Part shown: one piece after another, positions 3,462-56,434 of the stretch
Numbering within the stretch: the first letter of the stretch is position 1
Layout of the letters: each line of letters starts with the position of its first letter
Source: Hyphomicrobium sp.
GTDB lineage: Bacteria; Pseudomonadota; Alphaproteobacteria; Rhizobiales; Hyphomicrobiaceae
Direction: 5' to 3'
Length of the DNA: 64,000 nucleotides
NCBI RefSeq assembly: GCF_051860585.1
Contig: NZ_JBHYDS010000011.1
Span: 27,093-91,092, forward strand
Made by a program: the position numbers and the translations under genes
The notes under the pieces: model-generated
What the model was told of the DNA's origin: nothing
Seen by the model: the letters and a program-made list of their open reading frames with translations, nothing else
Database searches by the model: none

Positions 3462-3668
3462 ATGTACAAAGGCGTTAGATGGATCGTGGACATTACGTAC
3501 CACTCAGAGGCTGGTGACGTCGACGTTCGCCATCATCTGATGGAGCTGAAAGATCTGCATAATGTTGTCGAAGCAGGGCCGGATTGGCACTGCCTCAAAG
3601 GCATCGCGGTTTCGCTCGCCCGCCCTCCAGGCCAAGGGATCAAGACGCTGGAGGCCGCTGACGAATGA
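3462..3668 (+). CDS. Small hypothetical phage/island protein
   Basis: 68 aa, GGGATGG RBS, plausible composition (RWIVDITYHSEAGDVDV...GPDW). Confidence 0.55.
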   Translation: MYKGVRWIVDITYHSEAGDVDVRHHLMELKDLHNVVEAGPDWHCLKGIAVSLARPPGQGIKTLEAADE

Positions 3669-4317
3669 TCGCTTGGGCGCGGCAGCTGTTGCGTTGCCGC
3701 GCTTGCTCTTTCGCCCCCTCCGCAAGGCAAGTTCTGCTAATGCCTGCTTGTCACCAGTATGCAGACACGGCGTGCCGACGGAACGTATGCGTCGTTAATT
3801 GGCCGCCTATGTCGGTCCAGGGACGATGCGGTCGTACGCAGCTTCCGCAAGCAAGAAAGGGAAGTGTGGCCTCAGTTTGGACCTCACCAAATAAGCGGAC
3901 CACCCGCGTCTGCCCGCCACGACCGCACCGACTGTTCGCCGCTTCGTTATGCCAAGCCGAAAGCGAATGCTGCCGGGGGTGACAGTCTCGCTGTAGGCGT
4001 GAAGCTCAAAGCGAGACGGTTGATCACTTCGAGGCCGGCACCGAACCCGAAGAGGACCTCGCTCGTTGTCGCAACGGCGATGCGACCGGAACACCGCCAA
4101 AGCGAATTTCGAAACTCTCGTCGGATAATTCGCGAAGGTTGACGACGTCCAATTGTGAAATCCGGGAGCGATGCGGAGCTGAATAGAGCGTCTGCTCGCA
4201 GCGGCCGAGGAGGCGCACCGTCGTCTTGATCGGCTTACGTCCGCTCAGGACTTCGATGTGCCGACCCCGTGTCGAGCGCCGACTTCTATTGATGGGGCGA
4301 TCGCGGTCATACGCAAC

Positions 4318-4411
4318 GTCCGCTTTGCCGAGGAAGCAGACGCCGGAGAGATAGCTCTCGCACTTGCTTGCGCTCGGCGGTCGGATGTCGGCATTCCATC
4401 GCAAAGCGGAC
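4318..4411. repeat. Paired palindromic element (12-bp and 13-bp spacer sites), copy 1
   Basis: GTCCGC-N12-GCAGAC, 45 bp, GTCGGC-N13-GCGGAC. Confidence 0.75.
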
Positions 4412-4451
4412 GTGGGAGATACGACTCGGTGGGCCATGTGTGGACGGCTCC

Positions 4452-4708
4452 GGGCTGTCAAGGGTTTGGTCACGTAGCAGTGTTGGTCGGAGCAGCCATG
4501 TGTTCGGCCTTTGAGTGCGGCTCACAGGGCCGCTGGCCATAATGCCCTCCGCGGATCAGGTCCCGGTCAAAAGCTCGCATTCGAAGATGCTCTGGCCCAA
4601 GTGGGTTGTCCTGATCACCGGATCGACCGGTTCTGCATTACGTGCTGTCTGCCCTTTCCAACCGTTTCATCACGCCGTTGCCGGCGCGATCTCGCTAGCG
4701 TCGCGGCC
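4452..4708 (-). ncRNA. Putative bridge/seek RNA of the IS1111 element
   Basis: 257-bp non-coding region downstream of the transposase, containing segments that match both target flanks and the element end (see findings). Transcript ends unknown. Confidence 0.75.
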
Positions 4709-5740
4709 CTATCGAGCCAATGCGACGGGTTCCCTGTAGCTCTCGCCCTTGGCCATCATGGCCCAGGCCATACGTGCGATCTTGTTGGCGAGCGCGATCG
4801 CCGCGACTTTCGTCGGTCGGCGCTCGAGAAGTTTTGCAAGCCACGGGCGATGTTTGGTGCCGTGGATCCTGGCGTAGCGGATCACGGCCAGTGCGCCCGC
4901 ACAGAAGAGCGAGCGCAGATAGCGATCGCCCTGCTTGGTGATGCTGCCGAGCTTCTCTTTGCCACCGCTGGAGTTCTGTTTCGGCACCAGACCGACCCAT
5001 GCCGAGAAGTCGCGGCCGGATCGGAACGCCTTCGGATCGGCAACGCTCGCGACCAGTGCGGTTGCGAGTGCAGGACCGACGCCGGGGAGTTCGTCGAGCC
5101 GGCGGCTTGTCTCGTTCGAGCGATGCCAGGCGTTGATCTGGCGGTCGAACTCCAGGATCTGAGCTTTGAACTTGCTGAGCAGCGCACCCAGGGCTTCGAG
5201 ACACGCACGCGCGACCTCGGGAATACGCTCGTCCCTTTCATCGGCAACGGTGTAGAGCAACTCCTCCACGCCGTTGCGTCCGACCGGCGCCACGATACCG
5301 AACTCGGCCAGATGGGCGCGGATGGTGTTGATGACCGCAGTCTGCTGCCGGATGAAGAGGTGTCGCGTACGATGAAGCATTAGGCAGCTCTGCTGCTCGG
5401 TCGTTTTGGTCGGCACGAAGCGCATGCTCGGCCGCTGCACCGCCTCACAGATGGCCTCGGCATCGGCAGCACCGTTCTTCTGGCGTTTGACATAGGGCTT
5501 CACGTAGGCCGGGGGCATGAGCCGCACGGTATGCCCGAGGGCCTGCAGCTCGCGCGACCAATGATGCGACGTGGCACAGGCCTCAATGCCAACTAGGCAG
5601 GGCGGCAGCTTCTTGAAGAACGCGAGCACGTACCGGCGCTTCAGCTGTCGGCCGACAACAACGCTGCCCTGCGCATCGACCCCATGAACCTGAAAGACAG
5701 ACTTTGCGATGTCGAGGCCAACGACTGTGATTGCCTGCAT
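4709..5740 (-). CDS. IS110 family DEDD recombinase/transposase
   Basis: GLDIAK, GIEACAT, KNGAADAEAI, LDELPGVG, GLVPKQNSSGGK, KQGDRYLR, ALANKIAR motifs. One catalytic Asp (usual KND) reads KNG. Confidence 0.96.
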   Translation of the reverse strand: MQAITVVGLDIAKSVFQVHGVDAQGSVVVGRQLKRRYVLAFFKKLPPCLVGIEACATSHHWSRELQALGHTVRLMPPAYVKPYVKRQKNGAADAEAICEAVQRPSMRFVPTKTTEQQSCLMLHRTRHLFIRQQTAVINTIRAHLAEFGIVAPVGRNGVEELLYTVADERDERIPEVARACLEALGALLSKFKAQILEFDRQINAWHRSNETSRRLDELPGVGPALATALVASVADPKAFRSGRDFSAWVGLVPKQNSSGGKEKLGSITKQGDRYLRSLFCAGALAVIRYARIHGTKHRPWLAKLLERRPTKVAAIALANKIARMAWAMMAKGESYREPVALAR

Positions 5741-5874
5741 GATGAGCTCCTCCGGATCCTGGTCGCCTCATCGGCAACCGATTCCAAGGCGCTTGCGCGC
5801 CCCGTGAGGAGCCGTCCACAGCATCAAAAGCGGAAGCGACTAGCTCAGCCTCGCCACTCAGAAAGTGAGCTGGC

Positions 5875-7476
5875 TTATTTCGGCGCGATGACGGCCTTAG
5901 GCGGTTCGTTGCGATAGCGCCAGAATGCGGCTGCGCCCTGCTCAATACGCTCCATCATCGTTCCGCGAGCGTCGGGTGGATGGGTGCCGTCCATCAAGAG
6001 CACGCCGAGGTCCTGAAGGAGTGCAGCCTTTTCGGCGAATCCGCTGTGGTTCAAGCCAAAGAACTCCGTGCTTGTCGCCGTTACGTCAATCGTCTCCACG
6101 CCGGCGACAACAAGAGGAGTCGAAGGTGGGGCCGGGACGTCACCAGCACGCGCAACGCCGCCCGCAACGGTCCGAGAAGCGATAAGGGCTTTATCGCTCG
6201 AAGACGCGTAAAGGGTCACCCCTTGCGCAAAACTACCCAGATTGGTCGCGAGCGTCTCGAACACATCCCGGTCGATATCCGGCGCCGCGAGAATAATTTG
6301 GGAAACGACAGCACCGCCCTTAAGTCCGCCGGCGAGTTGAATCTTTTCAAGAGTGCGCAAGAGCGCCGCGTTGCCCATGCTGTGCGCGATAAGATGGACC
6401 TTTGTGGCTTTCGACTGCGTCGCCACCAGCTCGATGAAGTTGCGCAAGTAGTCGACGGACTGGTCAGCACTGTCCTTGTCGTATAGGTAGCCGGTCAATC
6501 CGCCGCCAGAGGGCCAGCTATAGAGGAAAGGTACACCGTCGAAGCCTATATCGTAGGCGATCTGGGCCGTGCGATAGAGGGCATTTTCGAACGAGACGTT
6601 GTAGCCGTGCACAAAGATGAAGGCTTGGTCCTTGAACGTTTGTGACGCGCCAAGCTGCTGTCGAACCGCCTCGATAAATTTCTCGCGACTGAGAACGCCG
6701 ATGTCTTGGATTGTAAAGTGTCGCCGCGGATCTTCGCTCAGCTCCAGTAGGGTGACGCCGAAAATCGAAAGCGCCCAGGGTCTTTCAATTATTGCCCGGT
6801 AATGGTCCTTGGGAATCGTAACAAGGGCTTTTCCTAGAACGAGGGCGCGCGCTCGCGCGCCAGCGAAAGATGCGCGCTCCGTTCCCGACGCTTGTTTGCG
6901 GTCGGTGCCGAAGAACACTGGGACGGCGTCGTAAGGCTCGTCTGCCGCTTCGTCAACGCCGGGGACCGGCCCTCTTTCGACCAACGCGTCATCGGGGCTG
7001 GACGATCCGCTGGCGTTAAGCTGGCTCGCCATGGCCTCATCGGTTTCAGCTTGGTCTCCGTCACCTCGCAGGCGGTGGACCAGCGCGCGCTCCTGATAAG
7101 CGGAGGCAAGCTTTGGATCGAGGGTGATCGCGTGCGCAAGCTCGGCGAGCGCACGGTCCACATCGCCGGCCAGTCGCAACACCAAAGCCTTGGCGACATA
7201 TGACCTCGCTTTATTCGGATCGAGCGCGATTGCCTTGTCCGAGTCGGAAATTGCACTGTCGATCTTCCCCAGCTCGGCGTAGGCGCGTGCCCGGAACAAG
7301 TGGGCCTCGACAAGCCGTTCGCTGGCTGTGTCGCCCGCGACGATGATTTCCGTGCAAGCTTGTACTCTTGTCGAAAGCTCGCCGCTTTCGCAGTCCTGCA
7401 AAACGTCCGCGCTGCCAACCGAGCTCACGGCGAGCCAGACGATCAGCGCAAGAAGGCCAGAAGGTCGGCGCAGCAT
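5875..7476 (-). CDS. Exported TPR-repeat + DUF900 alpha/beta hydrolase (esterase-like)
   Basis: Signal peptide, three TPRs, VPVFFGTDR, FVHGYNVSF, YSWPSGG, HLIAHSMG, LAAPDID, terminal HS; GGGGAG RBS. Confidence 0.85.
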   Translation of the reverse strand: MLRRPSGLLALIVWLAVSSVGSADVLQDCESGELSTRVQACTEIIVAGDTASERLVEAHLFRARAYAELGKIDSAISDSDKAIALDPNKARSYVAKALVLRLAGDVDRALAELAHAITLDPKLASAYQERALVHRLRGDGDQAETDEAMASQLNASGSSSPDDALVERGPVPGVDEAADEPYDAVPVFFGTDRKQASGTERASFAGARARALVLGKALVTIPKDHYRAIIERPWALSIFGVTLLELSEDPRRHFTIQDIGVLSREKFIEAVRQQLGASQTFKDQAFIFVHGYNVSFENALYRTAQIAYDIGFDGVPFLYSWPSGGGLTGYLYDKDSADQSVDYLRNFIELVATQSKATKVHLIAHSMGNAALLRTLEKIQLAGGLKGGAVVSQIILAAPDIDRDVFETLATNLGSFAQGVTLYASSSDKALIASRTVAGGVARAGDVPAPPSTPLVVAGVETIDVTATSTEFFGLNHSGFAEKAALLQDLGVLLMDGTHPPDARGTMMERIEQGAAAFWRYRNEPPKAVIAPK

Positions 7477-56261: not shown

Positions 56262-56434
56262 GCTGCACCTTTGCCTGCGAATGATCGGCCCCGCAAGCCG
56301 AAAAGATGCCCTTAGACGCACACCTAGGCGCAGGCGCGGGCTAGTCCTACGACGATATGTCGGGCGCATGTCGATGACCGGGGATTGCCTTCGGCAGTTG
56401 GTCCGCTTCTGGCCCAGCCAACTTCCAAAAACTT

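What the first reader, a model, noticed from the sequence alone, without database searches (positions are those of the whole stretch)
4430..5831. IS1111 bridge/seek RNA whose guides can be read, programmed against the island's repeated palindromic sites
Seen in the 3' non-coding region: GGTCAAAAGC (4565-74) contains the right target flank TCAAAAGC (5824-31). TGGCCCA (4593-99) is the reverse complement of the left flank TGGGCCA (4430-36). The two are separated by a small hairpin (GCAT-TCGAAG-ATGC), as expected for a target-binding loop. GCCATGTGT (4495-4503) is identical to the element end (4433-41), as expected for a donor guide. On the RNA strand the target loop precedes the donor loop. Known: IS110/IS1111 recombinases use such RNAs (IS621 bridge RNA, IS1111 seekRNA). 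The rebuilt empty site, reverse-complemented, is TTCCGC-TTTTG(A/G)CCCACC, the same class as the GTCYGC-TTYTGRCCCA sites elsewhere in this window. Inference: this IS has been programmed to hit another recombination system's sites, like the attC- and REP-targeting IS1111 subgroups.
Basis: partly seen in the sequence, partly recalled or inferred. Interest (0 to 1): 0.8.

Follow-up and report, generated by a model that had tools for sequence, protein, structure and literature searches.

The report
REP-targeting IS1111 element with guide RNA
This is an intact 1.39-kb IS1111-type insertion sequence whose 3' non-coding RNA carries short guide segments that match its insertion site, a repeated genomic palindrome.

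Summary
Finding the 8-mer and the 7-mer together in the 272-nt tail by chance has a probability of about 1e-5.

The element is an IS1111-family insertion sequence on the minus strand, window 4437-5826. It has a 343-aa DEDD transposase, perfect 12-bp subterminal inverted repeats, and a long 3' non-coding region.

About 90 relatives gave 75-82 distinct insertions.
- **Target guides:** the two proposed guides (4565-4574 and 4593-4599) covary with the left and right flanks.
- **Position in the fold:** both guides lie on opposite sides of an internal loop between a covarying basal stem and a covarying apical hairpin.
- **Donor segment:** the proposed donor segment (4495-4503) covaries with the element's right end in several lineages.

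The target is the loop of a REP-like palindrome, GTCCGC-N12-GCGGAC, with core TG. Uninterrupted copies are abundant in related alphaproteobacterial genomes.

One part of the reading is not supported: that these are another recombination system's sites, or are specific to this island.
- The host genome has only about 20 such palindromes.
- It has no Y1/RAYT gene.
- The occupied site is a half-degenerate copy.

This scan has already reported at least 31 similar IS1111/REP guide-RNA cases, including this same clade. The closest known element is ISPa11. I class it as a new member of a known kind, of low to moderate interest.

The parts
4437..5826 (-). Whole IS1111-family element, 1390 bp. The core TG is counted at the left end (5826-5825). 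The terminal extensions are 7 bp on the left (TGATGCT) and 3 bp on the right (ACA).
   Evidence: Junction table of about 90 relatives. Uninterrupted palindromes show TG followed by G or A then CCC, or by GCAC, with no extra bases. The 7/3-bp extension rule is from PMC11187229.
4709..5740 (-). Transposase gene, 343 aa, intact
   Evidence: Pfam DEDD_Tnp_IS110 (1e-11) and Transposase_20 (6.6e-25). The motif GLVPKQNSSG fits the IS1111 pattern GL-P----SG. Weak sequence matches to the ISCro4 and IS621 transposase structures.
5808..5819 (-). Left subterminal inverted repeat, GTGGACGGCTCC
   Evidence: It is kept in all relatives, and L008 has a change in the left repeat matched by a complementary change in the right repeat.
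4440..4451 (-). Right subterminal inverted repeat, GGAGCCGTCCAC
4457..4662 (-). Structured guide (bridge/seek) RNA domain of about 206 nt, closed by a long-range helix (4652-4662 pairs with 4457-4464)
   Evidence: RNAalifold on 35 sequences gives 48 pairs, 11 with compensatory changes; the outer helix has GC/UA and GC/GU/AU variation. The single-sequence fold has z = -4.1. No Rfam family matches.
4554..4616 (-). Target-binding loop module. The basal stem GAUCAGG/CCUGAUC is at 4610-4616 and 4554-4560, and the inner CCC/GGG stem at 4603-4605 and 4562-4564. They enclose an internal loop capped by a hairpin.
   Evidence: pair 55:116 is AU in 30 and GC in 4 sequences; pair 62:112 is CG in 33 and UA in 2.
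4591..4602 (-). 5' side of the loop, carrying the top-strand (right-target) guide. RNA UGGGCCA (4593-4599) pairs with TG+GCCCA of the right flank.
   Evidence: 495 of 553 positions match against 428 +/- 6 when pairings are permuted. Position +4 follows the flank (C, A or G) in 96% of 79 insertions.
4577..4590 (-). Apical hairpin GCAU-CUUCGA-AUGC separating the two guides
   Evidence: Pairs 80:92 and 81:91 change on both sides in 4 sequences each.
4565..4576 (-). 3' side of the loop, carrying the bottom-strand (left-target) guide. RNA GCUUUUG(A) has the same sequence as the left flank GCTTT plus core TG plus the first base of the element.
   Evidence: 290 of 375 variable positions match against 220 +/- 6 when permuted. 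All 20 distinct guide variants fit their own flanks better than other variants' flanks (3.90 against 2.52 of 5; Wilcoxon p = 2e-6).
4495..4503 (-). Donor-end (left-donor-guide-like) segment. RNA ACACAUGGC has the same sequence as the right end ACACA plus core TG plus the first two flank bases. It is single-stranded, in the multiloop.
   Evidence: It changes together with the right end in 6 sequence classes (for example ACGCA, AUACA, ACACACGG, and GGG/GGCA/GGCC extensions), while 5 single loci are uncompensated.
4435..4436 (-). Core TG copy on the right flank. The other copy is at 5825-5826.
   Evidence: TG is present at both junctions in nearly all relatives.
4456..4461 (-). TTGACA hexamer in the right end. 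In the excised circle it would sit 17 bp upstream of CATGAT, which spans the joined ends, giving a predicted junction promoter for the transposase.
   Evidence: Ends joined in a script. The hexamer is TTGACA or TTGCCA in all 35 aligned relatives. No sigma-70-like promoter is found in the integrated element. This is an inference only.

Best explanation
Window 4437-5826 (minus strand) is an intact IS1111-family insertion sequence.

**Guide RNA.** Its 3' non-coding region encodes a structured guide RNA of about 200 nt. One module of this RNA is an internal loop.
- The 5' strand of the loop (UGGGCCA) pairs with the top strand of core TG plus GCCCA.
- The 3' strand of the loop (GCUUUUG) pairs with the bottom strand of GCTTT plus TG.
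- Together they specify a 12-bp target, GCTTT-TG-GCCCA. This is the loop of a REP-like palindrome, GTCCGC-N12-GCGGAC.
- A further single-stranded segment (ACACAUGGC) matches the element's right end plus the core.

**Inferred mechanism.** By analogy with ISEc11, ISPa11 and IS621, the DEDD/serine recombinase bound to this RNA would:
- excise the element as a circle, joining the ends as ...ACA-TG-ATGCT...;
- recombine that junction with the target at the shared TG, without a target duplication.

**Shown here.**
- The anatomy of the element.
- The location of the guides in loops.
- Covariation of the guides with flanks and ends.
- The nature of the target.

**Inferred, not shown here.**
- That the RNA is expressed.
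- That it binds the protein.
- That the element is active in this genome.
For: - **Protein and layout:**
  - Transposase domains and motif.
  - 12-bp subterminal inverted repeats.
  - Non-coding regions of 272 nt at the 3' end and 86 nt at the 5' end.
- **Covariation:**
  - Guide against flank across 75-82 unique insertions.
  - Three right-guide classes (UGGGCCA, UGUGCCA, GCCCCC) match flanks TGGCCC, TGGCAC and GGGGG.
- **Structure:** the consensus fold puts both guides in an internal loop between covarying stems.
- **Donor segment:** it covaries with the right end.
- **Empty sites:**
  - More than 120 loci carry uninterrupted GTCCGC-TTTTG[A/G]CCCAAA-GCGGAC palindromes, and none has an ATGG spacer.
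  - In the CAC class, the base after TG is G in 148 of 153 empty sites. This fixes the crossover at TG, with the A at the left junction coming from the element.
- **Literature:**
  - The guide order, top-strand match then bottom-strand match, is the published IS1111 order.
  - Donor-binding nucleotides in a multiloop are reported for many IS1111 elements.
Against:
- The element is single-copy in this genome.
- The empty site of this particular copy was not found in 25 genomes of the genus.
- A right-donor guide could not be identified. The only candidate, ACAGCA at 4643-4648, is a 6-mer, and the left end is almost invariant, so covariation cannot test it.
- The homologues are related to one another, which inflates the permutation statistics. 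The 20 distinct guide variants reduce this concern.
- The left palindrome arm (GTCC) is conserved in targets although no guide covers it.
Confidence: 0.9

Rival explanations
1. One reading: the guides have been programmed against the att-like sites of a second recombination system (an integron-like cassette system or REP/RAYT) that operates in this island.
For: - The element sits 25 bp from a pair of arm-type palindromes at 4318-4341 and 4387-4411.
- Sites of the class are mildly enriched in the window (10 against 3.1 expected).
- IS1111 subgroups that target attC sites are known.
Against: - The same palindrome family is abundant in many unrelated alphaproteobacterial genomes and MAGs. It often occurs as pairs about 20 bp apart, as REP/BIME repeats do.
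- About 20 copies are scattered over at least 7 contigs of the host genome, and only 2 of 21 (at up to 2 mismatches) are in the window.
- No Y1/RAYT gene is present in the 99.99%-complete genome.
- Y1 genes in 20 loci of relatives are not flanked by these palindromes.
- No recombinase has been linked to the sites by any test here.
Confidence: 0.07
2. Target choice is mainly structural or protein-based, through recognition of the REP hairpin. The RNA matches would then be secondary or would act only together with a DNA stem-loop requirement.
For: - The left-arm positions -9 to -6 (GTCC) are 68-89% conserved in 75 targets, yet no contiguous guide covers them.
- The right arm is less conserved.
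- A 2026 preprint reports that ISPpu10, in the IS110 group, needs both RNA complementarity and a target DNA stem-loop.
Against: - The variable loop positions, not the arms, track the guides, variant by variant.
- The occupied site in this window lacks a proper right arm (2 of 6 positions) but matches both guides exactly.
- Arm conservation may simply reflect the pool of available sites.
Confidence: 0.2
3. The matches are trivial. On this view TGGCCCA and GCTTTTGA are parts of the element, or internal repeats of its ends, and carry no targeting information.
For: - TGGCCCA follows the right end in most relatives.
- TGA precedes the left end in nearly all relatives.
Against: - The flanks differ between copies and change together with the guides.
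- The joined flanks reproduce palindromes that exist uninterrupted in large numbers.
Confidence: 0.02
4. The element is an inactive relic that arrived with the island, and its RNA is no longer functional here.
For: - It is single-copy.
- No second exact 12-bp target exists in the genome.
- The occupied site is a degenerate palindrome.
Against: - The 343-aa reading frame is open and has the catalytic motifs.
- The inverted repeats are perfect.
- Both target guides match their flanks without a mismatch.
- The RNA helices are intact.
- The transposase is 95% identical to copies in other genomes.
Confidence: 0.25

Closest known systems
ISPa11 (IS1111 family, Pseudomonas aeruginosa), with an experimentally shown seekRNA (Siddiquee et al. 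2024, PMC11187229)
   Same: - DEDD transposase of 330-350 aa.
- Subterminal inverted repeats.
- Long non-coding region downstream of the gene.
- An RNA with a top-strand match 5' of a bottom-strand match.
- Inserts at one position in a REP palindrome, without a duplication.
   Different: - Different host clade (Alphaproteobacteria).
- Different REP family (GTCCGC-N12-GCGGAC).
- Different guide sequences.
- Nothing has been tested experimentally here.
- Sequence relatedness to ISPa11 was not measured.
ISEc11 / ISXne4 (IS1111 family), a natural case of re-targeting by guide replacement (PMC11187229)
   Same: Close relatives keep the RNA stems and change only the two guide segments together with the target. 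That is the pattern seen here among about 20 guide variants.
   Different: ISEc11 targets a short linear sequence. This clade stays within one palindrome family and varies mainly the loop bases.
IS621 bridge RNA (IS110 group; Durrant et al. 2024, PMC11208160; Hiraizumi et al. 2024, PMC11208158)
   Same: - A target-binding internal loop with one guide per strand and a shared 2-nt core.
- A donor-matching segment in the same RNA.
- REP targets.
   Different: - The RNA is at the 3' end, not the 5' end.
- The guide order is reversed.
- The core is TG, not CT.
- The donor segment lies in a multiloop, not in a simple internal loop.
- Long inverted repeats are present.
- No right-donor guide was identified.
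ISPpu9 / ISPpu10 (IS110 group, Pseudomonas putida), which occupy REP sequences (PMC1525189, PMC12288879, bioRxiv 10.64898/2026.03.19.712850)
   Same: Site-specific insertion into REP sequences, often in REP clusters.
   Different: They belong to the IS110 group, which lacks subterminal inverted repeats, and their RNA layout differs.

Membership tests
IS1111 family | DEDD (RuvC-like) N-terminal domain plus a PF02371 C-terminal domain, with a transposase of 330-350 aa | tested here: met
   PF01548 at 1e-11 and PF02371 at 6.6e-25; 343 aa
IS1111 family | GL-P----S(T)G motif in the C-terminal domain | tested here: met
   GLVPKQNSSG is in the translation. The motif is as described in PMC11187229.
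IS1111 family | Subterminal inverted repeats of 11-13 bp | tested here: met
   Perfect 12-bp repeats at 5808-5819 and 4440-4451
IS1111 family | Asymmetric terminal extensions (7 bp left, 3 bp right) and no target duplication | tested here: met
   The extensions are TGATGCT and ACA once the flanks are joined to give the uninterrupted N12 palindrome. Empty sites of both guide classes exist with no extra bases. The circle junction itself has not been observed.
IS1111 family | The longer non-coding region lies downstream of the transposase gene | tested here: met
   272 nt downstream against 86 nt upstream
seekRNA / bridge RNA | [quoted passage not shown] | tested here: met
   UGGGCCA lies 5' of GCUUUUG, and they overlap at TG. 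Covariation is shown.
seekRNA / bridge RNA | Guides lie in an internal loop flanked by conserved stems | tested here: met
   Consensus fold of 35 sequences, with compensatory changes in the basal stem and the apical hairpin
seekRNA / bridge RNA | Donor-binding guides for both the left and right donor halves | tested here: inconclusive
   The left-donor-like segment ACACAUGGC covaries with the right end in 6 classes, while 5 single loci are uncompensated. No right-donor guide could be established because the left end is invariant.
seekRNA / bridge RNA | The RNA is expressed, binds the transposase and is required for movement | not testable with these tools
REP (repetitive extragenic palindromic) element as target | A short imperfect palindrome present in many copies, often in clustered pairs | tested here: met
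Pairs are often about 20 bp apart. In the host genome the family is small, about 20 copies.
REP/RAYT system | A Y1 (RAYT) transposase gene flanked by the REPs | tested here: not met
   No PF01797 match in the host genome. 20 Y1 loci in family relatives have no such palindrome within about 1.5 kb.
IS1111-attC group | The target is an attC site of an integron cassette | not tested
   No search for an integron integrase or for attC structure was made. The target matches a REP-type repeat instead.

The most novel reading that the evidence does not exclude
The two bottom-strand guides each run 1-3 nt past the core TG into the partner that is joined only after recombination.
- The left-target guide reads GCUUU-UG-A, where A is the first base of the element.
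- The donor-end segment reads ACACA-UG-GC, where GC are the first bases of the right flank.
- The donor-end extension changes with the target class: GC becomes GG in the GGGGG class, and the third base becomes C or A in a few lineages.

This could be a mirror image of the IS621 'handshake' guides, placed on the bottom-strand guides instead. It would imply either a reversed order of strand exchange in IS1111 or recognition of the integrated junctions for excision.
Probability: 0.2. Interest if true: 0.5.

Novelty: new member of a known kind. Interest (0 to 1): 0.25.

Why it matters
It gives a cleanly delimited IS1111 element with a readable guide RNA. The clade has about 20 natural guide variants matched to their targets. 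That makes a ready-made natural reprogramming series for studying how IS1111 guide RNAs read DNA, including the still unclear donor recognition in this subgroup.

For annotating this genome, it shows two things. The palindromes near 4318-4411 and elsewhere are REP-type repeats and insertion hot spots. The evidence here does not link them to a cassette system.

It does not change what is known about the mechanism.

Tried and rejected
- **Rfam search** of 3500-7000 at E up to 1 gave no family.
- **Empty site of this copy:** the flank is not conserved in 25 genomes of the genus.
- **Alternative target with a 15-nt loop** (TTTTG-ATG-GCCCAAA) was rejected. None of 131 uninterrupted sites has that spacer.
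- **Alternative crossover one base further right** (target TGA, element ending in TGG) was rejected. In the CAC class, empty sites have TGG in 148 of 153 cases and TGA in 2.
- **Candidate right-donor guide ACAGCA** (4643-4648) is untestable because the left end is invariant, and L015 changes it without compensation.
- **Candidate helix GUAAUGC:GCAUUAU** can form in all sequences but never covaries, so it is uninformative.
- **Handshake guide 3' of the top-strand guide, as in IS621:** the two bases there vary freely and match the donor only in a minority of sequences.
- **Sigma-70 promoter scan** of the integrated element found none.
- **Plasmid database search** found relatives annotated only as 'IS110 family transposase'.
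As a result there is no RNA coverage, no circle-junction reads and no excision reads.

Full report
**1. Observation**

- GGTCAAAAGC is at 4565-4574 and shares TCAAAAGC with 5824-5831.
- TGGCCCA at 4593-4599 is the reverse complement of 4430-4436.
- A small hairpin, GCAT-TCGAAG-ATGC, lies between them at 4577-4590.
- GCCATGTGT occurs at both 4495-4503 and 4433-4441.

In 200,000 shuffles of the 272-nt tail:

| Motif | Share of shuffles |
|---|---|
| 8-mer | 0.08% |
| 7-mer | 2.4% |
| 8-mer and 7-mer together | 0.001% |
| 9-mer | 0.16% |

**2. What the element is**

The only long reading frame is 4709-5740 on the minus strand, 343 aa.
- It carries DEDD_Tnp_IS110 and Transposase_20 domains.
- It carries the IS1111-type motif GLVPKQNSSG (motif from PMC11187229).
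- Perfect 12-bp inverted repeats lie at 5808-5819 and 4440-4451.
- The non-coding region is 272 nt downstream and 86 nt upstream of the gene.

These are the defining features of the IS1111 family. The element is single-copy in its 4.15-Mb genome.

**3. Relatives and junctions**

A DNA search of 200 genomes of the same family found matches in 82 of them, including 11 full-length copies at 68-88% identity. A protein-seeded scan of public genomes gave 80 more loci at 80-95% amino-acid identity. Those with names are mostly Bradyrhizobium, Pseudolabrys and unnamed alphaproteobacterial MAGs.

The ends were aligned in the element's own orientation.
- The left junction is (G)TCCG-NNNN-TG-A|TGCTGTGGAC.
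- The right junction is GTCCACACA-TG-GCCCA or GTCCACACA-TG-GCACA, often followed by NN-GCGGAC-AT.

**4. The target**

Joining the flanks gives GTCCGC-N12-GCGGAC.

| Scan of public genomes | Result |
|---|---|
| GTCCGCTTTTG-N(0-4)-CCCAAAGCGGAC | Reached the 120-locus limit. The variable position was A in 97 sites, G in 17, CG in 13, other in 4. No site had ATGG. |
| GCAC guide class | 148 of 153 uninterrupted sites had G after TG; 2 had A. |

These results lead to four conclusions.
- The target loop is 12 nt and the shared core is TG.
- The G after TG at the right junction comes from the target.
- The A after TG at the left junction comes from the element.
- The boundaries therefore follow the published IS1111 rule of 7 bp left and 3 bp right of the repeats: window 4437-5826, 1390 bp.

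The palindromes often come in pairs about 20 bp apart, like REP/BIME repeats.

A logo of 75 unique insertions reads atGTCCGC-TtT-TG-GCcCaTa-GCGGa-aT. The left arm is better conserved than the right.

**5. Do the guides covary with the targets?**

*Bottom-strand guide (window 4565-4574)*
- The five variable bases match the left flank at 290 of 375 positions, against 220 +/- 6 when pairings are permuted.
- All 20 distinct guide variants fit their own flanks better than other variants' flanks (3.90 against 2.52 of 5; Wilcoxon p = 2e-6).
- Examples are AAAGUG, GGUAUUG, GUUGUUG and GGUUAUG, each with identical flanks.

*Top-strand guide (4593-4599)*
- 495 of 553 positions match, against 428 +/- 6 when permuted.
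- The C/A/G position follows the flank in 96% of 79 insertions.
- There are three classes: UGGGCCA with TGGCCCA, UGUGCCA with TGGCACA, and GCCCCC with GGGGG.

The sequences are related, so the permutation figures are upper bounds on significance. The number of independent variants still makes the conclusion robust.

**6. Loops or stems?**

RNAalifold on 35 non-redundant sequences gives the following structure (alignment A1; coordinates).
- A long-range closing helix, 4652-4662 with 4457-4464, which covaries.
- A CCGG hairpin.
- A module with basal stem GAUCAGG/CCUGAUC and inner stem CCC/GGG, both with compensatory changes.
- An internal loop with the top-strand guide on its 5' side and the bottom-strand guide on its 3' side.
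- An apical hairpin GCAU/AUGC, which changes to GCGC, GCAC or GCGU with compensation.

This is the architecture of a target-binding loop. The guide order, top-strand match first, is the one published for IS1111 seekRNAs.

**7. Donor side**

The segment ACACAUGGC (4495-4503) lies single-stranded in the multiloop. Durrant et al. describe the same placement for many IS1111 elements.
- It changes together with the right end in six sequence classes, while five single loci are uncompensated.
- It runs two bases past the core into the right flank. That extension follows the target class.
- In the same way, the bottom-strand target guide runs one base past the core into the element.
- I could not establish a right-donor guide. 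The left end is almost invariant, and the only candidate is a 6-mer.
- Donor recognition may rely partly on the inverted repeats. This is an inference.

**8. Predicted circle**

Joining the ends in a script gives TTGACA-17 bp-CATGAT across the junction. The integrated element has no sigma-70-like promoter. A junction promoter for the transposase is therefore plausible but untested.

**9. The 'other recombination system' claim**

In the host genome the palindrome family is small.

| Mismatches allowed | Hits in genome | Hits in shuffled genome |
|---|---|---|
| 0 | 5 | not run |
| up to 1 | 11 | 1 |
| up to 2 | 21 | 4-12 |

- The hits are spread over several contigs, with only 2 of the 21 in the window.
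- The motif TTYTGRCCCA is not enriched genome-wide.
- There is no Y1/RAYT gene.
- Y1 genes in 20 loci of relatives are not flanked by such palindromes.
- The occupied site (TTCCGC-TTTTGGCCCACC-GAGTCG) keeps the left arm and loop but only 2 of 6 right-arm bases. It lies 10 bp from a further palindrome at 4387-4411.

I therefore read the sites as REP-type repeats.

**10. Comparison with known systems, and verdict**

REP-targeting members of the IS110/IS1111 families have been known since 2003-2006: IS621, ISPa11, ISPpu9, ISPpu10 and ISRm19. The RNA-guided mechanism was shown in 2024 (PMC11187229, PMC11208160, PMC11208158). ISPa11 is the closest described case.

This scan has already recorded at least 31 similar findings in at least 30 genomes, including look-alikes of this very RNA.

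The finding is correct and well supported. It is a new member of a known kind.

Noticed in passing
window 56401-56416 (+): GTCCGCTTCTGGCCCA is the best unoccupied match to this element's guides in the window. The 12-bp target GCTTCTGGCCCA differs by one C, which would give a U:G wobble with the bottom-strand guide. It has no right palindrome arm. It is a candidate second insertion site.
   Followed up: partly
window 4318-4341 and 4387-4411: Two arm-type palindromes (GTCCGC-N12-GCAGAC and GTCGGC-N13-GCGGAC) lie 45 bp apart, next to the element's right end. With the occupied site they form a cluster of three.
   Followed up: partly
loci L093, L097, L099, L104, L115 (relatives): A sub-clade has CG instead of TG at the right end and in the donor-end segment, while the left junction keeps TG and the top-strand guide still reads TG. 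So the left junction carries the target's core and the right junction the donor's core. This is the outcome expected if top strands are cut just after the core, as in IS621.
   Followed up: partly
window 4548-4555 (-): The RNA has the self-complementary octamer UCCGCGGA just 3' of the target-loop basal stem. Its halves equal the palindrome arm sequences TCCGC and GCGGA. A match this short could be chance. It might instead relate to the conserved left arm of the targets.
   Followed up: no
loci L047 and L050, and also L113 (relatives): Different copies share the same right flank (TGGCCCATCGCGTCATTTCGCTGCG) but have different left flanks. Many left flanks share TGCGGTGCATGA upstream of the arm. 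The repeat unit is therefore longer than the 24-bp palindrome, or copies have recombined with one another.
   Followed up: no
uninterrupted palindromes in L116-L323: Within the CCCAAA class most empty sites have TGACCC (97) and fewer have TGGCCC (17). The bottom-strand guide GCUUUUGACC matches the abundant TGACCC form over 10 nt, whereas the top-strand guide fits only TGGCCC. The element thus seems to use the minority variant. Whether the majority variant acts as a partial or decoy site is unknown.
   Followed up: partly
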